A DNA stretch of 31,884 nucleotides from a virus (IMGVR_UViG_2541047931_000002:1-31884); one strand, 5' to 3'; counted from the stretch's first letter, positions 6,081 through 17,784 are shown. Program-made: numbers and translations. The notes: generated from the letters alone by a model not told the origin.

Positions 6081-9000
6081 TCAGGCACTGCATAATCCTC
6101 CGTCCCGACGTGATGACTGCATAATTGACACAACCCTGCTGTCGATCAGATCCACCAGTCCCCTGGCTGAGCGCGCATCTATCTCGCCATTGCTCCCTTG
6201 ATTCTGAATGCTGATGTGATACACGGGAGAATAAACAAATCCACCGCCACCATTCACATTTCCAATGGCCCTGACCCCAAGAGAGCCGTCCGCTGCCCGT
6301 GTCAGTGGCATGATTGCTTCAGGCCCGGCCTCGCCCATCAGCCCGGCACCTTTCGCAAAAGCAAAATACGTCGGGGTATCCACAATGGTGTTACTGTAAG
6401 CACTCAGATTTGCCGATGTATAAACACCACCTTTTGCGTTTGCCACTGCACCGGAAAGCCAGTCGCCGACTGTACCAAGCCATCCTCCGGCACCGGACAT
6501 GCTTTTGGAAAGTGACTTCAGCCCGTTAACGATGGCAGCGTTCATCAGAATTTTTGAAACTTCCTGGAGAATTGAACTCCCCCAGTTTCTCCAGTCCACA
6601 ACATTTCCGGCCAGTGCATCGGAAATATTTGATACCAGCCCGTCCATAGTGGAAACGACAGCATCTGCCGCCTGCGAAGCATAATCGGTGGCACTGTCTG
6701 CCCAGTTCGTCAGTCCCTCCTGGAGTCCGGCATTCCAGTTACTGCGTAAAGCATCAGCCTTTGCATAATAATCCTGCTGATCGCTGAGACGCTCTTCCAG
6801 ATATTTTTCATTCAGAGATTTTTCCTGTTTCCACAGGGCTTCTTCAATTTCTCCGGCCTGATACTGTCTCAGTAGCTCGTTATTTTTCTGCTCAAACTCC
6901 TGCCGGATGCTCCACATTTCCTGAAGTCGTTCACGCATCCGTGAGCCTTCACCATATCCCAGTAACTGAGCCTCATTTGATGCTCTGACACTGGCATTAC
7001 TGTCCGCCAGACTGCTCTCATACGCAGCAAGCTGCTCACGAATCTTTTTCTGGTCGATGAGTGCTGCATTCTGCAAAAGCGTTTTTTTCTGCGCTTCTGA
7101 CAGGGTTGATAATTCGCCCTGGCTGACCTGATATTTCATCTTAGCCAGTTCAGTATTCTGCCCTGCCAGTGCTATTTGCTCTTTTTGCTGTTTAATCAGT
7201 TGCTTATAAGTATCTTCTATTTTTTCCGCTTCGGTCTTTTTATGCGCTTTGGGTTTATTTGCCTGGTTATTTCGCCATGCATCCAGTGAGTTATTTATAT
7301 AATTCAGTCTTGCTGTCTGATACGCCTCTCCCACAAAGCCGAGATCATCCGCAGCATAACCCAGGCGGGCACGCTCACGAGCTTCCCCCTTCAGGCGGGA
7401 CAGAGCCAGTTCGCGCTCGCTGTTATTCAGTGCGGTCTGCTGTTTATCATCCAGGGTTGCCTGTGGTAGCCGTAACGGTACATTCACCAGCCCCTGTCGC
7501 TGCTGAAGTAATTCATTACCGAGCCCGAGAAGGCGATTAAACTCGGTATGCTGCCCATTCATGATCAACAGGGACTGATACGCTTTGTTTTGTTCCGCTG
7601 CCTGTTGACGGATCAACGCCACCCGTCGCTCCTCCAGCCCGGCAAGCACATCCTGAATGGATTGCGCTTTGCCCTGCATTTGAGTGAGGCGAGACTGTTC
7701 AACTGCCAGTTGATTTGTTGCTTCTGCAAGCCCTTCTGTGACAGTTTTTACCGACGTCATGTGGTTAATCATAAAACCGTTATCGGTTGTCCAGCCCGGG
7801 TTTGCCAGCACATACTGATAGCCAGCAATTTTTTCCTGTAAGGATTTAATCTTACTTTTCTGCTCGTCAATTAACCTGTTTTGCTCCTTCAGTGCCTGTC
7901 GCGTCTTTTCCTCATTATCTGACGCTTCAGGAAGCGACATTGCCGACGTTTTCTGGCGAATTTCGTCGATTGTTGCGGCATACTGTCGTGCAGATTCTCT
8001 GGCCTGCTCCTGATTCTGATACATCGTGTACCAGGCCGCAGCCCCCAGCATGACGAGTCCCGGCACACCACCAACCAGCCCCAGCGCGCCACTTAATAAA
8101 CGACTCCCCACTGACGTAACATTATTCAGCGTTGTCTGTGCCGCTGTTCTGGCCGCAATATTACGGGTAAGTGACACCTGGGCAGCTGTCAGCTTCGCTT
8201 CTGCTGCGGCCTGCCTTTCGGTACCGCGAGCAGCAACAACCGCCTGTTGCGCACGATAAACCGCCGCACGCGCCCTGGCGGTTGCTATCTGTGTCCCCCG
8301 AAGTTGCACTTCAGCAAGAGCCACTTCGTTTCTGGCTGCAGTAATTAATCCGGCAGTTGCAGATCCAGCAGACGACGCCATATTGCCAAAATATCGGGCT
8401 ACCCCGACGGCAACCAGAGCACCAGCAGCGGTTGCCACGGTGTCAATATTGCCTGCAATACCATTCAGCACACCGGAGAGCGTCTTCGTCACTCCGCTTG
8501 CCTCGTTCGCACCACCAACCCAGGCCATAAAGGCGTTTTCAACTTTGGTTGCAGAGGATGAAACCGTATCAGGCATTGCTGCATATTCATCACGCAACGC
8601 CCCAAGCTGACTAATCAGTGCAGGAACAACCTTATCGGCGGTCAGTTTTCCGTTATCCGCCATGGCCTTCAGATCCTTACGGGCAACCCCCATTCCCGCA
8701 GCCAGCGCACGAATAACACGATCGCCGTTCTCATTCACCGAGTTAAACTCTTCACCGCGCAGCACTCCCTGCGCCAGTGCCTGACTGAACTGCGTGATCA
8801 CCGAACTGGCTTCTGCTGTACTGGCACCGGATAATTTCAGGCCCGTGGAGATCGCCTCGGTGACTTTCAGTACCTCCTCAGAACTGTAACCATACTCCCG
8901 CATGGAAGCTGCAGAACGGGCAAAAAGGCTGGCGTTATCAGAAAACGCCGTCCCCGTTCTCTGGCTGATCGCCATTAATTCACGCTGTGATGACTGAAAA

Positions 9001-9326
9001 TCATCACTGGACTGTGAGGCCTGCTTCAGACGGGCATTTACTGAATTCCACTCATCGGCGAGAGAAATAAGATGACCGGTAGCAAAAGCCCCGGCAAATG
9101 CCCCCGCCATGTTCAGTGCCGAAGATTTAGCTGTATTTATCTGATCCGTCACTTCTGCCAGTGCACGCCGCATTTCACGGGATGCAGCAGCGGACTGTCG
9201 GCCTCCGTTCTGCATGGTACGGTAGTAATCCTGCCCCATACGCGAAGCCCGGGAGATCTCTGACTGGAATGACCGGGAATTTGCCGAGATTTTAATAATC
9301 AGTTCACGTAATGTCGCCACACTCAT
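6081..9326 (-). CDS. H: Tail tape measure protein H
   Basis: 1081-aa ORF with long coiled-coil regions, Gly/Ala-rich hydrophobic segments and a C-terminal region typical of lambda gpH; sits between G-T and M. Confidence 0.9.
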   Translation of the reverse strand: MSVATLRELIIKISANSRSFQSEISRASRMGQDYYRTMQNGGRQSAAASREMRRALAEVTDQINTAKSSALNMAGAFAGAFATGHLISLADEWNSVNARLKQASQSSDDFQSSQRELMAISQRTGTAFSDNASLFARSAASMREYGYSSEEVLKVTEAISTGLKLSGASTAEASSVITQFSQALAQGVLRGEEFNSVNENGDRVIRALAAGMGVARKDLKAMADNGKLTADKVVPALISQLGALRDEYAAMPDTVSSSATKVENAFMAWVGGANEASGVTKTLSGVLNGIAGNIDTVATAAGALVAVGVARYFGNMASSAGSATAGLITAARNEVALAEVQLRGTQIATARARAAVYRAQQAVVAARGTERQAAAEAKLTAAQVSLTRNIAARTAAQTTLNNVTSVGSRLLSGALGLVGGVPGLVMLGAAAWYTMYQNQEQARESARQYAATIDEIRQKTSAMSLPEASDNEEKTRQALKEQNRLIDEQKSKIKSLQEKIAGYQYVLANPGWTTDNGFMINHMTSVKTVTEGLAEATNQLAVEQSRLTQMQGKAQSIQDVLAGLEERRVALIRQQAAEQNKAYQSLLIMNGQHTEFNRLLGLGNELLQQRQGLVNVPLRLPQATLDDKQQTALNNSERELALSRLKGEARERARLGYAADDLGFVGEAYQTARLNYINNSLDAWRNNQANKPKAHKKTEAEKIEDTYKQLIKQQKEQIALAGQNTELAKMKYQVSQGELSTLSEAQKKTLLQNAALIDQKKIREQLAAYESSLADSNASVRASNEAQLLGYGEGSRMRERLQEMWSIRQEFEQKNNELLRQYQAGEIEEALWKQEKSLNEKYLEERLSDQQDYYAKADALRSNWNAGLQEGLTNWADSATDYASQAADAVVSTMDGLVSNISDALAGNVVDWRNWGSSILQEVSKILMNAAIVNGLKSLSKSMSGAGGWLGTVGDWLSGAVANAKGGVYTSANLSAYSNTIVDTPTYFAFAKGAGLMGEAGPEAIMPLTRAADGSLGVRAIGNVNGGGGFVYSPVYHISIQNQGSNGEIDARSARGLVDLIDSRVVSIMQSSRRDGGLCSA

Positions 9327-9336
9327 TCTCCGGACG

Positions 9337-9358
9337 AAAAAAAACCGCCGAAGCGGTT
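9337..9358 (-). terminator. Intrinsic-terminator-like hairpin between T and H
   Basis: Minus-strand RNA AACCGC-UUCG-GCGGUU followed by about 8 U; UUCG tetraloop; located between the T stop (9367) and the H RBS/start (9326). Confidence 0.45.
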
Positions 9359-9366
9359 ATGTTGAC

Positions 9367-10055
9367 TCACTGAGACACTATTAAAAGCGCGTTTTCCAGT
9401 CCAGCAAATGGATCTGATACGCCTTCTGTCTGCTCCTTCTCCCACTGAAGAAGCGCATCATTCAGTGGCACTTTGACCCCCTGCGCACCGTAAACAGCTG
9501 AAACAATCTGGGCAGCCCGGATATCAGCCCGTTCGTCCCCCAGCGGGCTGAACCTGTCAAATTCTGCCCACATCATGATTTCTGATGCGGACATTTCCCG
9601 GCGTAACTCTGACAATGTGCGCCCCATCCTGAGCGCCAGCATCATCAGAAAACGCATCCCCGGAAGCGCTACTTTTTTTTAACCTCGCCGGCATCACTGA
9701 TTAGTTCCAGAGACTGCCGAAGAAGCCGCGCATGCACCGGGCCATACACGGCAATCACCTGTTCACGATCATCCTCTGAAAATACAGGTTGCAGTCCGGT
9801 ATCACACAGAACATCGATGAACAGTTCAACATCCGCTTCCAGATTTCGGCGGGCGCGCTCCGCAACGGATAACGGTGTCTCATCATCTTTTGCTTTAACG
9901 ATCTCCTGCCAGCGCAACCAGGCTTCTGCAGAAGGTTCCCGTAATACAACCGTTGCCCCTTCCCATTCAGGCACATCAACAGTTTTATGGCGAAACCCCG
10001 ACATCGTTGCCAGTGCCAGATTACGGATATTTTTAGTCATCACATCTATCCTCAT
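9367..10055 (-). CDS. Tail assembly chaperone G-T fusion made by programmed -1 ribosomal frameshift
   Basis: The T frame (9367..9657, MRFLMMLALRMGRTLSEL...) is the -1 frame relative to G and is open back to the slippery heptamer A-AAA-AAG at about 9672-9678, which sits directly before the G stop. Predicted junction ...GEVKK-K-VALPGMRFLMM... Confidence 0.7.
9669..10055 (-). CDS. G: Tail assembly chaperone G
   Basis: 128-aa ORF ending ...ISDAGEVKKK immediately upstream of H; position and size match lambda gpG; ends in the slippery run A-AAA-AAG. Confidence 0.8.
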   Translation of the reverse strand: MRIDVMTKNIRNLALATMSGFRHKTVDVPEWEGATVVLREPSAEAWLRWQEIVKAKDDETPLSVAERARRNLEADVELFIDVLCDTGLQPVFSEDDREQVIAVYGPVHARLLRQSLELISDAGEVKKK

Positions 10056-10759
10056 TAACTGACGGTAACAGTGCAGGAAGTAGAGGTCACTTTGTTAACC
10101 GGGCTTGCTGAATCAGAAATCTCGCAGGTATATGCACCCGCATCACCGGATACTGCCGATGCCTTACTGAACGTTGCCGCCGTCTGTCCGGAAACAGGAG
10201 AACCACCTTTCTTCCAGACATAAGAATAAGGCGGCACACCACCCGCAGCCTCAACCGCCATTTCAAGTTTCGATCCGGAAGCAACCCGCAGCGTGCTTTT
10301 TAAATCGACCTTCACTTTCAGCGGCTCTGTCGTCAGCACAGGTTTACCTTTCAGGCGCAGAGAAAACGTTGCAGCCACAACACCATTGGTTCCTGCAGAC
10401 CAGGTATGCTGACGCACCTCTGCCATAAAGGTAAATCCGTTGCCTGACGGAAAAATAACTTTAAAGCCATACGTGGTGTCATTGTCATAGGCACTGCGCA
10501 ACGCGTTCTGGGCAGCATTGAGGTAAAAGTTGCCTGACATGGAAATCTCTGAAGCAGCACCAAGGCCGTTAATATTTTCCTGCTCAACAGAACACAGCGT
10601 GGTGACATCAATATCCTGCTTTTGTCCTGCAGTAAACTGCACCTCTTTGATTGTACAGCTCAGGCCAAGATAGCTGGCAGAATCCAGGGTTTCTGCTGTT
10701 ACCGGTGCAGACGAAATCATAATTTTCGTCAGTTGCGAACGCTCAAAATTAGAGGACAT
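10055..10759 (-). CDS. V: Major tail protein V with C-terminal Ig-like domain
   Basis: Frame of ORF 10055..10810; start placed at ATG 10759 (MSSNFERSQLTKIMISSAPVTAETLD...) with AGGAG RBS; C-terminal Big_2-like segment ...GGVPPYSYVWKKGG...TCEISDSA...; stop overlaps the G start. Confidence 0.85.
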   Translation of the reverse strand: MSSNFERSQLTKIMISSAPVTAETLDSASYLGLSCTIKEVQFTAGQKQDIDVTTLCSVEQENINGLGAASEISMSGNFYLNAAQNALRSAYDNDTTYGFKVIFPSGNGFTFMAEVRQHTWSAGTNGVVAATFSLRLKGKPVLTTEPLKVKVDLKSTLRVASGSKLEMAVEAAGGVPPYSYVWKKGGSPVSGQTAATFSKASAVSGDAGAYTCEISDSASPVNKVTSTSCTVTVS

Positions 10760-10771
10760 ACTCGTCTCCTG

Positions 10772-10797
10772 AAAATAAAAAACCCGCCAGCGGCGGG
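10772..10797 (-). terminator. Intrinsic-terminator-like hairpin just upstream of V
   Basis: Minus-strand CCCGCC-loop-GGCGGG followed by UUUUUUAUUUU; lies between the stop of the 10819..11163 gene and the V RBS. Confidence 0.4.
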
Positions 10798-10818
10798 TGG
10801 GTAAAATCATTAACGACC

Positions 10819-17302: not shown

Positions 17303-17784
17303 CAGTCTCTCGCTTTTAAAAGCTCTGCCAGCGGATCAACATTATCCGGTCCGGCGGTATTTACTTTTGCCCGGCTTGCCGGTGACATACCAAATTCTGC
17401 AAGCATCGCCCGGATCCGCTTCCAGGCATCCGCTTTCATCGCAGCAGCCGGGTGTGCCTTAATCAGCACATCACCGTTCTGCGTTTCCGAGCGGTAGGTG
17501 TACCCCTCAACATCGAGTGTTTCGCAGTGATGCCGGTATTCGGTATAGGCTTCCACCAGTAGCTCAAGCGCACGCGCATCAAGCTGAGAAATGATCCCTT
17601 CCGCATTCAGCTCTTCCGCCATTCGCCTGAACCAGTACTTCCCCTGCGCCCCTAAATGTTGCGGAATTTTAGGGAGACCTTTTTCATCCTTTTTAGCGGT
17701 TTTTTTGAGGTCTTTAACTGGCCGCTTTGAGGGGTTGCCTCGTATCAAATGCAGGCGTGGCGGGATTTTCGGGGGTCCAGACAT
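17302..17784 (-). CDS. Terminase small subunit (P27 / HK97-like)
   Basis: 160-aa ORF MSGPPKIPPRLHLIRGNPSKRPVKDLKK... directly upstream of TerL; an HNH endonuclease is nearby, as in HK97-like cos phages. Confidence 0.8.
   Translation of the reverse strand: MSGPPKIPPRLHLIRGNPSKRPVKDLKKTAKKDEKGLPKIPQHLGAQGKYWFRRMAEELNAEGIISQLDARALELLVEAYTEYRHHCETLDVEGYTYRSETQNGDVLIKAHPAAAMKADAWKRIRAMLAEFGMSPASRAKVNTAGPDNVDPLAELLKARD

What the first reader, a model, noticed from the sequence alone, without database searches (positions are those of the whole stretch)
9367..10055. Programmed -1 frameshift joining G to T at an A-AAA-AAG slippery heptamer
The T reading frame is the -1 frame relative to G and is open right back to the heptamer A-AAA-AAG that ends G (...GEVKKK-stop). 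The T frame has no independent start codon with an RBS until well downstream. This is the conserved G / G-T chaperone arrangement of long-tailed phages, here with an all-A slippery site rather than lambda's G-GGA-AAG.
Basis: partly seen in the sequence, partly recalled or inferred. Interest (0 to 1): 0.4.

Follow-up and report, generated by a model that had tools for sequence, protein, structure and literature searches.

The report
Known phage tail-chaperone G/GT frameshift site
This is the standard programmed -1 ribosomal frameshift that lets an E. coli prophage of the HK97 type make a short tail-assembly chaperone (G) and a rarer extended form (G-T); it is real, strongly conserved and already well known.

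Summary
G (window 10040-9669, Pfam Phage_TAC_1, E=2e-58) ends ...GTT AAA AAA AAG TAG. The T domain (Pfam Phage_tail_T, E=4e-19) lies in the -1 frame. That frame is closed by TAA (9681-9679) just before the heptamer A_AAA_AAG (9678-9672), and the 0 frame closes with TAG (9671-9669) just after it, so a single in-phase slippery site fills the whole permitted window.

The pair lies between the major tail and tape-measure genes and is 64%/63% identical to HK97 gp13/gp14. RefSeq annotates gp14 as "translated due to a -1 frameshift".

In 46 species-level relatives (G identity 43-70%), T is in the -1 frame in all 44 intact loci, and an A_AAG lysine site sits at the same aligned position. The peptide just after it (V-x-x-P-x-x-x-F-L-M) is conserved with synonymous variation, and 16 of 26 lack any ATG there.

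A homologous cassette, AGA_AAA_AAG_TAG, gave 7% frameshifting in an E. coli reporter (Antonov 2013).

The all-A heptamer is the commonest type in this family.

Verdict: an ordinary, known feature, simply not annotated as a joined CDS here.

The parts
9669..10040 (-). Gene G, tail assembly chaperone, 123 aa (MTKNIRNL...GEVKKK), including stop TAG 9671-9669. The ORF listing extends it to ATG 10055.
   Evidence: Pfam PF06222 Phage_TAC_1 E=2.4e-58 over its full length. phrog_344 E=1e-44. PDB 2OB9 'Tail assembly chaperone' E=4.6e-49. 64% identical to HK97 gp13. RefSeq start at 10040. SD GAGGA upstream.
9672..9678 (-). Slippery heptamer A_AAA_AAG in X_XXY_YYZ phase of G. It is the 3' part of an A8 run (9680-9673).
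   Evidence: Phase computed. The same site or an A_AAG core is at the same aligned position in all 44 intact species-level relatives. A homologous AGA_AAA_AAG_TAG cassette gave 7% -1 frameshifting (PMC3711429 Table S2).
9679..9681 (-). TAA stop in the -1 (T) frame immediately 5' of the heptamer. It sets the 5' limit of the shift window.
   Evidence: overlap of 10 nt.
9669..9671 (-). TAG stop of G immediately 3' of the heptamer. It sets the 3' limit of the shift window and is a possible 'shifty stop' stimulator.
   Evidence: A stop directly follows the AAG in 30 of 44 intact relatives.
9367..9672 (-). T segment read in the -1 frame, from GTA (9672-9670) to TGA (9369-9367), 101 aa: VALPGMRFLMMLALRMGRTL...LLIVSQ.
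   Evidence: Pfam PF06223 Phage_tail_T E=4e-19. phrog_337 E=9e-40. 63% identical to the C-part of HK97 gp14. The linker peptide after the slip is conserved with third-position variation.
9367..10040 (-). Predicted G-T fusion product, 224 aa, made by the -1 shift.
   Evidence: phrog_14766 (a 224-position profile of fused proteins) matches residues 1-220 across the junction, E=3.4e-92. tblastn to 198 phage records always returns two pieces in two frames.
10055..10759 (-). Major tail protein gene with a C-terminal Ig-like domain, immediately upstream of G.
   Evidence: phrog_158 E=8e-111; Pfam Ig_2/Ig_3 plus weak tail-tube matches. RefSeq start equals window 10759.
6081..9320 (-). Tape measure protein gene, immediately downstream of T. 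It is the expected binding partner of G and GT.
   Evidence: Pfam Phage_HK97_TLTM E=2e-93, TMP_3, Tape_meas_lam_C. RefSeq start GTG equals window 9320.
9601..9655 (-). Local RNA hairpin (11 + 6 bp core) starting 16-21 nt 3' of the heptamer. Probably not a stimulator.
   Evidence: Fold z = -2.1. No consensus structure in 30 relatives. Only 58-81% of cells are paired, with almost no compensatory change in the core, and the region is confounded by the conserved LALRMGRT codons.

Best explanation
This is a programmed -1 ribosomal frameshift of the lambda G/GT (HK97 gp13/gp14) type.

Most ribosomes translating G decode ...GTT AAA AAA AAG and terminate at TAG, giving the 123-aa chaperone G. A minority slip one base back, with tRNA-Lys on AAA (P site) and AAG (A site). 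E. coli's single tRNA-Lys (anticodon mnm5s2UUU) pairs better with AAA than with AAG. After re-pairing on A_AAA_AAG to AAA_AAA, the ribosome reads GTA GCG CTT CCG GGG ATG... and adds the 101-aa T domain, giving a 224-aa G-T fusion.

By analogy with lambda, G and the G part of GT coat the tape measure protein. The T part recruits the major tail protein, and neither ends up in the virion. The fixed low GT:G ratio is set by the shift efficiency.

Shown here: the frames, the in-phase heptamer, family membership, gene order, and conservation of the site and of the post-slip peptide.

Inferred: that the shift occurs in vivo at this exact locus. Its efficiency is probably about 5-10%, from the 7% measured on a homologous A_AAA_AAG_TAG cassette. 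The adjacent TAG and the A8 run may raise it. The protein-protein roles are also inferred.
For: - Frames and heptamer phase, with the shift window limited to the heptamer by TAA (-1 frame) and TAG (0 frame).
- G is Phage_TAC_1 and T is Phage_tail_T, and a profile of fused proteins (phrog_14766) spans the junction.
- The pair lies between the major tail and tape-measure genes.
- It is 64%/63% identical to HK97 gp13/gp14. NC_002167 annotates gp14 as a joined CDS 'translated due to a -1 frameshift', and mEp234 carries the same note.
- Of 46 species-level loci, 44 are intact, and all of these have T in the -1 frame with an A_AAG Lys site at the same aligned position. The counts are 23 A_AAA_AAG+stop, 7 A_AAA_AAG with a later stop, 7 G_GAA_AAG and 7 GCA_AAG_TAA.
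- K123 of G is invariant.
- The post-slip linker V-x-x-P-x-x-x-F-L-M has constant length. Its Pro is encoded by all four codons. Third-position entropy is 1.73 bits against 1.01 and 1.14. Sixteen of 26 sequences have no ATG in it.
- Lambda's G_GGA_AAG lies at the same distance from the homologous T motif.
[quoted passage not shown] That sequence matches relatives L005/P0026.
- Background on A_AAA_AAG, A_AAG and gpG/gpGT: PMC5009743.
Against: - There are no direct protein or ribosome-profiling data for this locus.
- ATG codons at 9657, 9645 and 9642, and a weak SD-like GGGGA 11 nt before 9645, mean some independent or re-initiated T could also be made. Public annotation treats T as a separate gene.
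- The A8 run is at the length where RNA polymerase slippage starts to be noticeable. That route would give the identical fusion protein, so part of the GT could arise without ribosome slippage.
- No conserved stimulatory RNA structure or properly spaced upstream SD-like element was found.
Confidence: 0.9

Rival explanations
1. Transcriptional slippage. RNA polymerase adds one extra A while copying the A8 run, and ordinary translation of that mRNA subpopulation gives the same G-T fusion (...VKKK-VALPG...). This would be the main route rather than ribosomal slippage.
For: The run is 8 As (9680-9673). The literature quoted in PMC3711429 lists An with n>7 as supporting programmed transcriptional realignment, and efficiency rises with run length: 7 As 10%, 9 As 40%, 11 As 63% in another gene. 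Relatives L125/L126 carry 9 As (A_AAA_AAA_TAG). The protein product would be indistinguishable.
Against: The recoding is conserved in relatives whose A runs are only 3-4 long (GCA_AAG_TAA and G_GAA_AAG, 14 of 44 intact loci). Polymerase slippage is not expected there, so the ancestral and general mechanism is ribosomal. What is conserved is the phase and the AAG codon, not the run length. The homologue with only 6 As still gave 7%. Efficient slippage by bacterial RNA polymerase is documented for runs of 9 or more (PMC5009743).
Confidence: 0.05
2. T is an independent protein, as annotated in RefSeq. It would start at ATG 9645 (or 9657), either de novo or by termination-reinitiation after the G stop 11-23 nt upstream, with no functionally relevant fusion.
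For: ATG codons at 9657, 9645 and 9642. GGGGA lies 11 nt upstream of 9645, with -5.7 kcal/mol pairing to the anti-SD. PGAP and the phage submitters annotate a separate 92-aa T. The closeness of the G stop would favour coupling.
Against: The ATG at 9657 is not conserved: it is ATT, ATA, GTG, ACA or ACG in relatives, and 16 of 26 have no ATG in the linker. The GGGGA is simply the Pro-Gly codons and varies. The residues upstream of the first Met (V-x-x-P-G) are conserved at the protein level with synonymous changes, so they are translated in the -1 frame. L050 lacks even the conserved FLM methionine. In lambda, T is made only as GT (PMC5009743). The -1 frame being closed exactly at the heptamer in many lineages is unexplained by this model.
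Confidence: 0.04
3. Decay or artefact. G and T were once one gene, or two unrelated genes, and the frame break at a homopolymer is a mutation in a defective prophage or a sequencing error.
For: Homopolymer length variants do occur in public assemblies: A7 in L093/L098/L115, A6 in P0001, A9 in L048, and an 11-nt deletion fusing the frames in L004.
Against: Among complete E. coli genomes with identical flanks, 86 have exactly A8 and none has A7 or A9. The -1 arrangement holds from 43% to 100% identity across about 20 genera. Both ORFs are intact and under protein-level constraint.
Confidence: 0.01

Closest known systems
Phage HK97 gp13 / gp14 (tail assembly chaperone and its -1 frameshift extension; NC_002167, PDB 2OB9)
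   Same: Same protein families in both parts, at 64% and 63% identity. Same position between the major tail and tape-measure genes. T is in the -1 frame. The slip Lys AAG codon and the post-slip linker (V-S-T-P-G-V-K-F-L-M against V-A-L-P-G-M-R-F-L-M) are at the same aligned positions.
   Different: HK97 uses CGG_GAA_AAG (G_GAA_AAG, only 4 As), with the G stop 15 nt further on, so G carries an extra SQPPA tail. Here the site is A_AAA_AAG within an A8 run and abuts the stop. HK97 has a moron gene (gp15) between T and the tape measure; here there is only a 46-nt spacer with a terminator-like hairpin.
Phage lambda G / G-T (G_GGA_AAG, about 3-4% shift, 30:1 ratio)
   Same: Same gene order, -1 direction, A-site AAG Lys codon and Val as the first -1 codon. 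The distance from the slip to the conserved T motif is also the same (lambda VFDGELSFALKLAREMGR against VALPGMRFLMMLALRMGR). T belongs to the Pfam family named after lambda T. The functional model is taken from lambda (PMC5009743).
   Different: The G part is not detectably similar to lambda G by BLASTP, and Pfam places it in Phage_TAC_1. The heptamer is A_AAA_AAG rather than G_GGA_AAG. The lambda G stop is 18 nt after the site, whereas here it is adjacent.
Phage_TAC cluster cassette tested by Antonov et al. [quoted passage not shown]
   Same: Homologous gene pair (about 64% identity; the same sequence as L005/P0026). Identical A_AAA_AAG heptamer followed directly by TAG. Measured at 7% +/-0.79 -1 frameshifting in an E. 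coli GST-MBP reporter.
   Different: That run has 6 As (AGA AAA AAG) against 8 here, and the downstream sequence differs. The exact sequence of this window was not tested.
E. coli dnaX gamma/tau frameshift
   Same: Identical slippery heptamer A_AAA_AAG, and the same tRNA-Lys-based mechanism in the same host (PMC5009743; PMC3711429).
   Different: dnaX has an SD-like stimulator 10 nt upstream and a hairpin about 6 nt downstream, which give about 50% efficiency, and the shifted product is the shorter one. Here GAGG lies only 4 nt upstream and is not conserved, there is no conserved hairpin, no Rfam match, and the shifted product is the longer one.

Membership tests
Long-tailed phage G/GT tail assembly chaperone recoding (Xu, Hendrix & Duda 2004) | Two ORFs located between the major tail (tube) gene and the tape measure gene | tested here: met
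   Order on the minus strand is major tail 10759-10055, G 10040-9669, T 9672-9367, tape measure 9320-6081.
Long-tailed phage G/GT tail assembly chaperone recoding (Xu, Hendrix & Duda 2004) | Downstream ORF overlaps or abuts the end of the upstream ORF in the -1 frame | tested here: met
   T is the -1 frame of G, with a 10-nt overlap window.
Long-tailed phage G/GT tail assembly chaperone recoding (Xu, Hendrix & Duda 2004) | Slippery sequence in the correct phase inside the overlap | tested here: met
   A_AAA_AAG at 9678-9672 is in X_XXY_YYZ phase and fills the whole window between TAA (-1 frame) and TAG (0 frame).
Long-tailed phage G/GT tail assembly chaperone recoding (Xu, Hendrix & Duda 2004) | Arrangement conserved among homologues despite sequence divergence | tested here: met
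   44 of 46 species-level loci (43-70% identity) keep the -1 frame and an A_AAG site at the same aligned position. The 2 exceptions are single-A indels in the run.
Long-tailed phage G/GT tail assembly chaperone recoding (Xu, Hendrix & Duda 2004) | No independent translation start for the downstream ORF | tested here: inconclusive
   In this window ATGs exist at 9657, 9645 and 9642, with a weak, poorly spaced SD-like GGGGA. In relatives the ATG is often absent and the upstream linker is conserved as protein.
Long-tailed phage G/GT tail assembly chaperone recoding (Xu, Hendrix & Duda 2004) | Both G and a low-abundance GT fusion are made, and both are required for tail assembly; neither is in virions | not testable with these tools
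   Indirect only: 7% frameshifting measured on a homologous cassette (PMC3711429) and lambda data summarised in PMC5009743.
HK97 gp13/gp14 protein family (Pfam PF06222 Phage_TAC_1 + PF06223 Phage_tail_T) | Sequence membership of both parts above the curated thresholds | tested here: met
   PF06222 scores 195.9 bits (cut-off 25) and PF06223 scores 69.2 bits (cut-off 25.9). Identity to HK97 is 64%/63%. PDB 2OB9 E=4.6e-49.
dnaX-type stimulated A_AAA_AAG frameshift cassette | SD-like element about 10 nt upstream and a stable hairpin about 6 nt downstream of the heptamer | tested here: not met
   GAGG lies 4 nt upstream and is not conserved. The nearest strong hairpin starts 16-21 nt downstream and is not supported by covariation. 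No Rfam frameshift element matches.

The most novel reading that the evidence does not exclude
The A8 run followed directly by a stop may make this variant a dual-mechanism site, combining ribosomal -1 slippage with RNA-polymerase slippage. The GT:G ratio would then be much higher than lambda's roughly 1:30. The family-wide alternation between A_AAA_AAG+stop, A_AAG+stop and G_GAA_AAG would represent evolutionary tuning of chaperone stoichiometry to different tape-measure and tail lengths. A more speculative extension is that the homopolymer acts as a mutational on/off switch for tail production in prophages. The absence of A7 or A9 alleles in complete genomes argues against that extension.
Probability: 0.08. 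Interest if true: 0.4.

Novelty: already known. Interest (0 to 1): 0.1.

Why it matters
The main value is for annotation. The same DNA is present in about 900 of 5,426 complete E. coli genomes and in 11 phage records. [quoted passage not shown] The family-wide comparison gives a compact natural series of shift-site types at one homologous position: A_AAA_AAG with an adjacent stop, A_AAA_AAG with a later stop, G_GAA_AAG, and GCA_AAG with an adjacent stop. That series could be used to calibrate frameshift predictors or to study how GT:G stoichiometry is tuned. Nothing here changes current understanding of recoding or tail assembly.

Tried and rejected
- Downstream stimulatory RNA structure. The window's own sequence folds into a hairpin (z = -2.1), but RNAalifold on 30 relatives predicts no pairs. 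Imposing the window's structure gives 62% paired cells with almost no compensatory change in the core. The strong stem also starts 16-21 nt after the heptamer. Rejected as a conserved stimulator.
- Upstream SD-like stimulator. GAGG lies 4 nt before the heptamer, too close for the dnaX-type effect, and is absent in relatives.
- Rfam scan of 9300-10100 at E<=1 gave no match.
- Phase-variation idea. Exact-match searches with A7 and A9 versions of a 70-nt probe found 0 perfect matches in complete E. coli genomes, against 86 for A8. The A7/A6 variants in IMG/VR and Logan assemblies are therefore most likely homopolymer sequencing errors.
- In-frame fused proteins in the 5.8-billion-protein database (P0001-P0003). 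All come from single short contigs with indels at or near the run, so they are not evidence of annotated GT products.
- BLASTP against lambda G and T was not significant. The relationship of T to lambda T rests on the Pfam profile and on the visibly shared motif.
- Structure prediction, the exhaustive representative-protein search and the metagenome scan were not used, because the family assignment was already unambiguous.

Full report
**What is in the sequence**

The genes in this part of the window run on the minus strand. Read that way, an ORF that the ORF listing starts at ATG 10055 ends ...GGC GAG GTT AAA AAA AAG TAG, i.e. GEVKKK-stop, with the stop at 9671-9669.
- Its real start is more probably ATG 10040. 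That codon has GAGGA 7-10 nt upstream and is the start used by RefSeq.
- The -1 frame carries TAA at 9681-9679. It is then open for 103 codons, through KK-VALPGMRFLMMLALRMGRTL... to TGA at 9369-9367.
- AAAAAAG at 9678-9672 begins on the third base of a G codon, so it is in X_XXY_YYZ phase.
- The heptamer is bracketed by a -1-frame stop on its 5' side and the 0-frame stop on its 3' side. It is therefore the only place at which a -1 shift can join the two frames.

**Is it more than chance?**

AAAAAAG occurs 15 times on both strands of the 31.9-kb window. Of 330 X_XXY_YYZ heptamers in the window, three combine a long upstream ORF, a 0-frame stop within 15 codons and a -1 ORF of at least 80 codons.
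- One is this site.
- One lies antisense to the terminase gene.
- One is T_TTA_AAA at the TerS/TerL junction, where TerL has its own TGATG-coupled start.

**What the two ORFs are**

- G matches Pfam PF06222 (Phage_TAC_1) end to end (E=2.4e-58).
- The -1 ORF matches PF06223 (Phage_tail_T, E=4e-19).
- In PHROGs, the simulated 224-aa fusion matches a 224-position family of fused proteins, phrog_14766, over residues 1-220 and across the junction (E=3e-92).
- The neighbours are a major tail protein with a C-terminal Ig-like domain upstream and a 1,079-aa tape measure protein downstream.
- Further upstream lie HK97-type head, connector and tail-completion genes.
- The only solved structure hit is 2OB9, 'Tail assembly chaperone' (E=4.6e-49).

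**Where it comes from and how it is annotated**

- The 821-bp region is 100% identical to E. coli prophages and to induced-phage records such as vB_EcoS-611R1 and PhiR49_2.
- It is present in 902 of 5,426 complete E. coli genomes.
- In CE10 it sits in a lambdoid prophage next to torT.
- In the three records of this sequence whose feature tables I opened, G and T are separate CDSs, with T starting at ATG 9645 in two of them. No joined feature is annotated.
- The HK97 reference genome annotates the homologous pair as gp13 plus a joined CDS 'translated due to a -1 frameshift'. mEp234 carries the same note.
- The window's G and T are 64% and 63% identical to HK97 gp13 and to the C-part of gp14.

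**Comparative test**

I fetched 46 species-level genomic loci (G identity 43-70%; Enterobacter, Serratia, Pectobacterium, Proteus, Morganella, Pantoea, Yersinia, Orbus and others) and 80 viral contigs. In every intact locus the T homologue is in the -1 frame (alignment score 190-330, against at most 33 for the +1 frame). A Lys AAG codon preceded by A sits at the same aligned position, which explains why K123 is an invariant column of the G alignment. The shift-site types are as follows.

| Shift-site type | Loci |
|---|---|
| A_AAA_AAG directly followed by a stop | 23 |
| A_AAA_AAG with the stop 12-24 nt later | 7 |
| G_GAA_AAG (the HK97 type) | 7 |
| GCA_AAG_TAA (only an A_AAG tetramer plus an adjacent stop) | 7 |
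| Single-A indels in the run (L025, L048) | 2 |

- The peptide encoded just after the slip, V-x-x-P-x-x-x-F-L-M-x-L-A-L-R-x-G, has a constant length.
- Its proline uses all four codons.
- Third-position entropy in the six variable linker codons is 1.73 bits, against 1.01 and 1.14 for positions 1 and 2.
- Sixteen of 26 sequences have no ATG in this linker.

This is the signature of translation in the -1 frame starting at the slip site, not at a downstream Met. Lambda's G_GGA_AAG lies at the same distance from the homologous T motif (VFDGELSFALKLAREMGR).

**Experimental precedent**

Antonov et al. 2013 (PMC3711429) found a 'phage tail assembly chaperone' cluster of 41 frameshifted genes similar to HK97 and tested two cassettes in an E. 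coli GST-MBP reporter.
- A G_GGA_AAG cassette gave 6%.

The first cassette is the sequence of the 64%-identical relative seen in L005/P0026. It has the same heptamer-plus-TAG configuration as the window. The Atkins et al. 2016 review (PMC5009743) provides the background.
- It summarises why A_AAA_AAG and A_AAG are the most shift-prone sites in E. coli: a single tRNA-Lys that pairs better with AAA.
- It summarises the lambda model: G and the G part of GT bind the tape measure, T binds the major tail protein, the ratio is about 30:1, and neither is in virions.

**Stimulators**

I found none that is conserved.
- GAGG lies 4 nt upstream of the heptamer and is absent in relatives.
- The window's RNA folds into a hairpin, but its strong part begins 16-21 nt downstream (z = -2.1).
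- RNAalifold finds no consensus structure in 30 relatives.
- Imposing the window's structure gives 62% paired cells with almost no compensatory change in the core, which coincides with the conserved LALRMGRT codons.
- Rfam has no match.
- The adjacent stop codon, present in 30 of 44 intact relatives, is the only recurrent context feature. It is obligatory in the class that has only A_AAG, which fits stop-stimulated P-site slippage. This last point is my inference from established knowledge of 'shifty stops'.

**Rival explanations**

- *Transcriptional slippage.* Slippage on the A8 run would give the identical protein and may contribute. It cannot be the general mechanism, because 14 of 44 intact relatives have runs of only 3-4 As, and the tested homologue with 6 As still shifts at 7%.
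- *Independent or re-initiated T.* This is the public annotation, and this sequence alone does not exclude it. ATG 9645 has GGGGA 11 nt upstream (-5.7 kcal/mol), and ATG 9657 has no spacing. The comparative data argue against it being the functional route.
- *Prophage decay or sequencing error.* Conservation rules this out. So does the finding that, among complete E. coli genomes with identical flanks, 86 carry exactly A8 and none carries A7 or A9. The A7, A6 and A9 versions seen in draft, IMG/VR and Logan assemblies are best read as homopolymer errors or rare mutations.

**Verdict**

- The genes are on the minus strand.
- ATG codons lie just downstream of the slip site.
- The heptamer type is the commonest in this family, not an unusual one.
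- Public records annotate T as a separate gene.

This is a member of the HK97 gp13/gp14 family using a shift site that has already been described and tested in a homologue. It is already known and of low interest. Its practical value is for annotation, and as one point in a natural series of shift-site variants.

Noticed in passing
window 9343-9358 (-), T-run to about 9335: A terminator-like hairpin (AACCGCTTCGGCGGTT followed by T8) lies in the 46-nt spacer between the T stop and the tape-measure start. HK97 and mEp234 have a moron gene (gp15) plus an annotated terminator at this position; here only the hairpin is present.
   Followed up: partly
window 10782-10798 (-): A strong terminator-like hairpin (7 bp, 6 GC, T-rich tail) lies between the tail-completion gene and the real start of the major tail gene (ATG 10759). 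It matches the position of a 'putative terminator' annotated in HK97. The ORF listing start at 10810 for the major tail ORF is therefore over-extended.
   Followed up: partly
window 17314-17320 (-): A canonical T_TTA_AAA heptamer lies 4 codons before the stop of the small terminase gene, with the large terminase ORF in the -1 frame. TerL has its own coupled start (TGATG with GAGAG upstream), so this is probably incidental.
   Followed up: partly
L093, L098, L115 (IMG/VR); P0001, P0004-P0006 (Logan); L025; L048: Length variants of the slippery A run occur in draft and metagenome assemblies: A7 and A6 in close relatives, A6 instead of A7 in Serratia L025, and A9 in Symbiopectobacterium L048, which fuses the frames. 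None was found in complete E. coli genomes with the same flanks (86 A8, 0 A7, 0 A9).
   Followed up: yes
L004:3001-3669 (JGI metagenome 3300055986): A 64%-identical relative carries an 11-nt deletion (TAGCCCGCCCG) right after the heptamer. This places G and T in one frame and would give a constitutive 222-aa fusion. It comes from a single 4-kb contig, so a real variant and an assembly artefact cannot be told apart.
   Followed up: partly
L125, L126 (IMG/VR, 78% identical G): A variant shift site GTT_AAA_AAA_AAA_TAG has 9 As, with AAA instead of AAG in the A site. That run length is documented to allow RNA-polymerase slippage.
   Followed up: no
whole window, both strands: AAAAAAG occurs 15 times against 6.4 +/- 2.8 expected from dinucleotide-preserving shuffles, and none of 100 shuffles reached 15. 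The other 14 copies were not examined individually for phase or downstream ORFs beyond the filter.
   Followed up: partly
window 10055-10759 (-): The major tail protein carries an in-frame C-terminal Ig-like domain (Pfam Ig_2/Ig_3; also matches Hoc-like decoration PHROGs). RefSeq names the whole protein only 'immunoglobulin domain-containing protein'.
   Followed up: no
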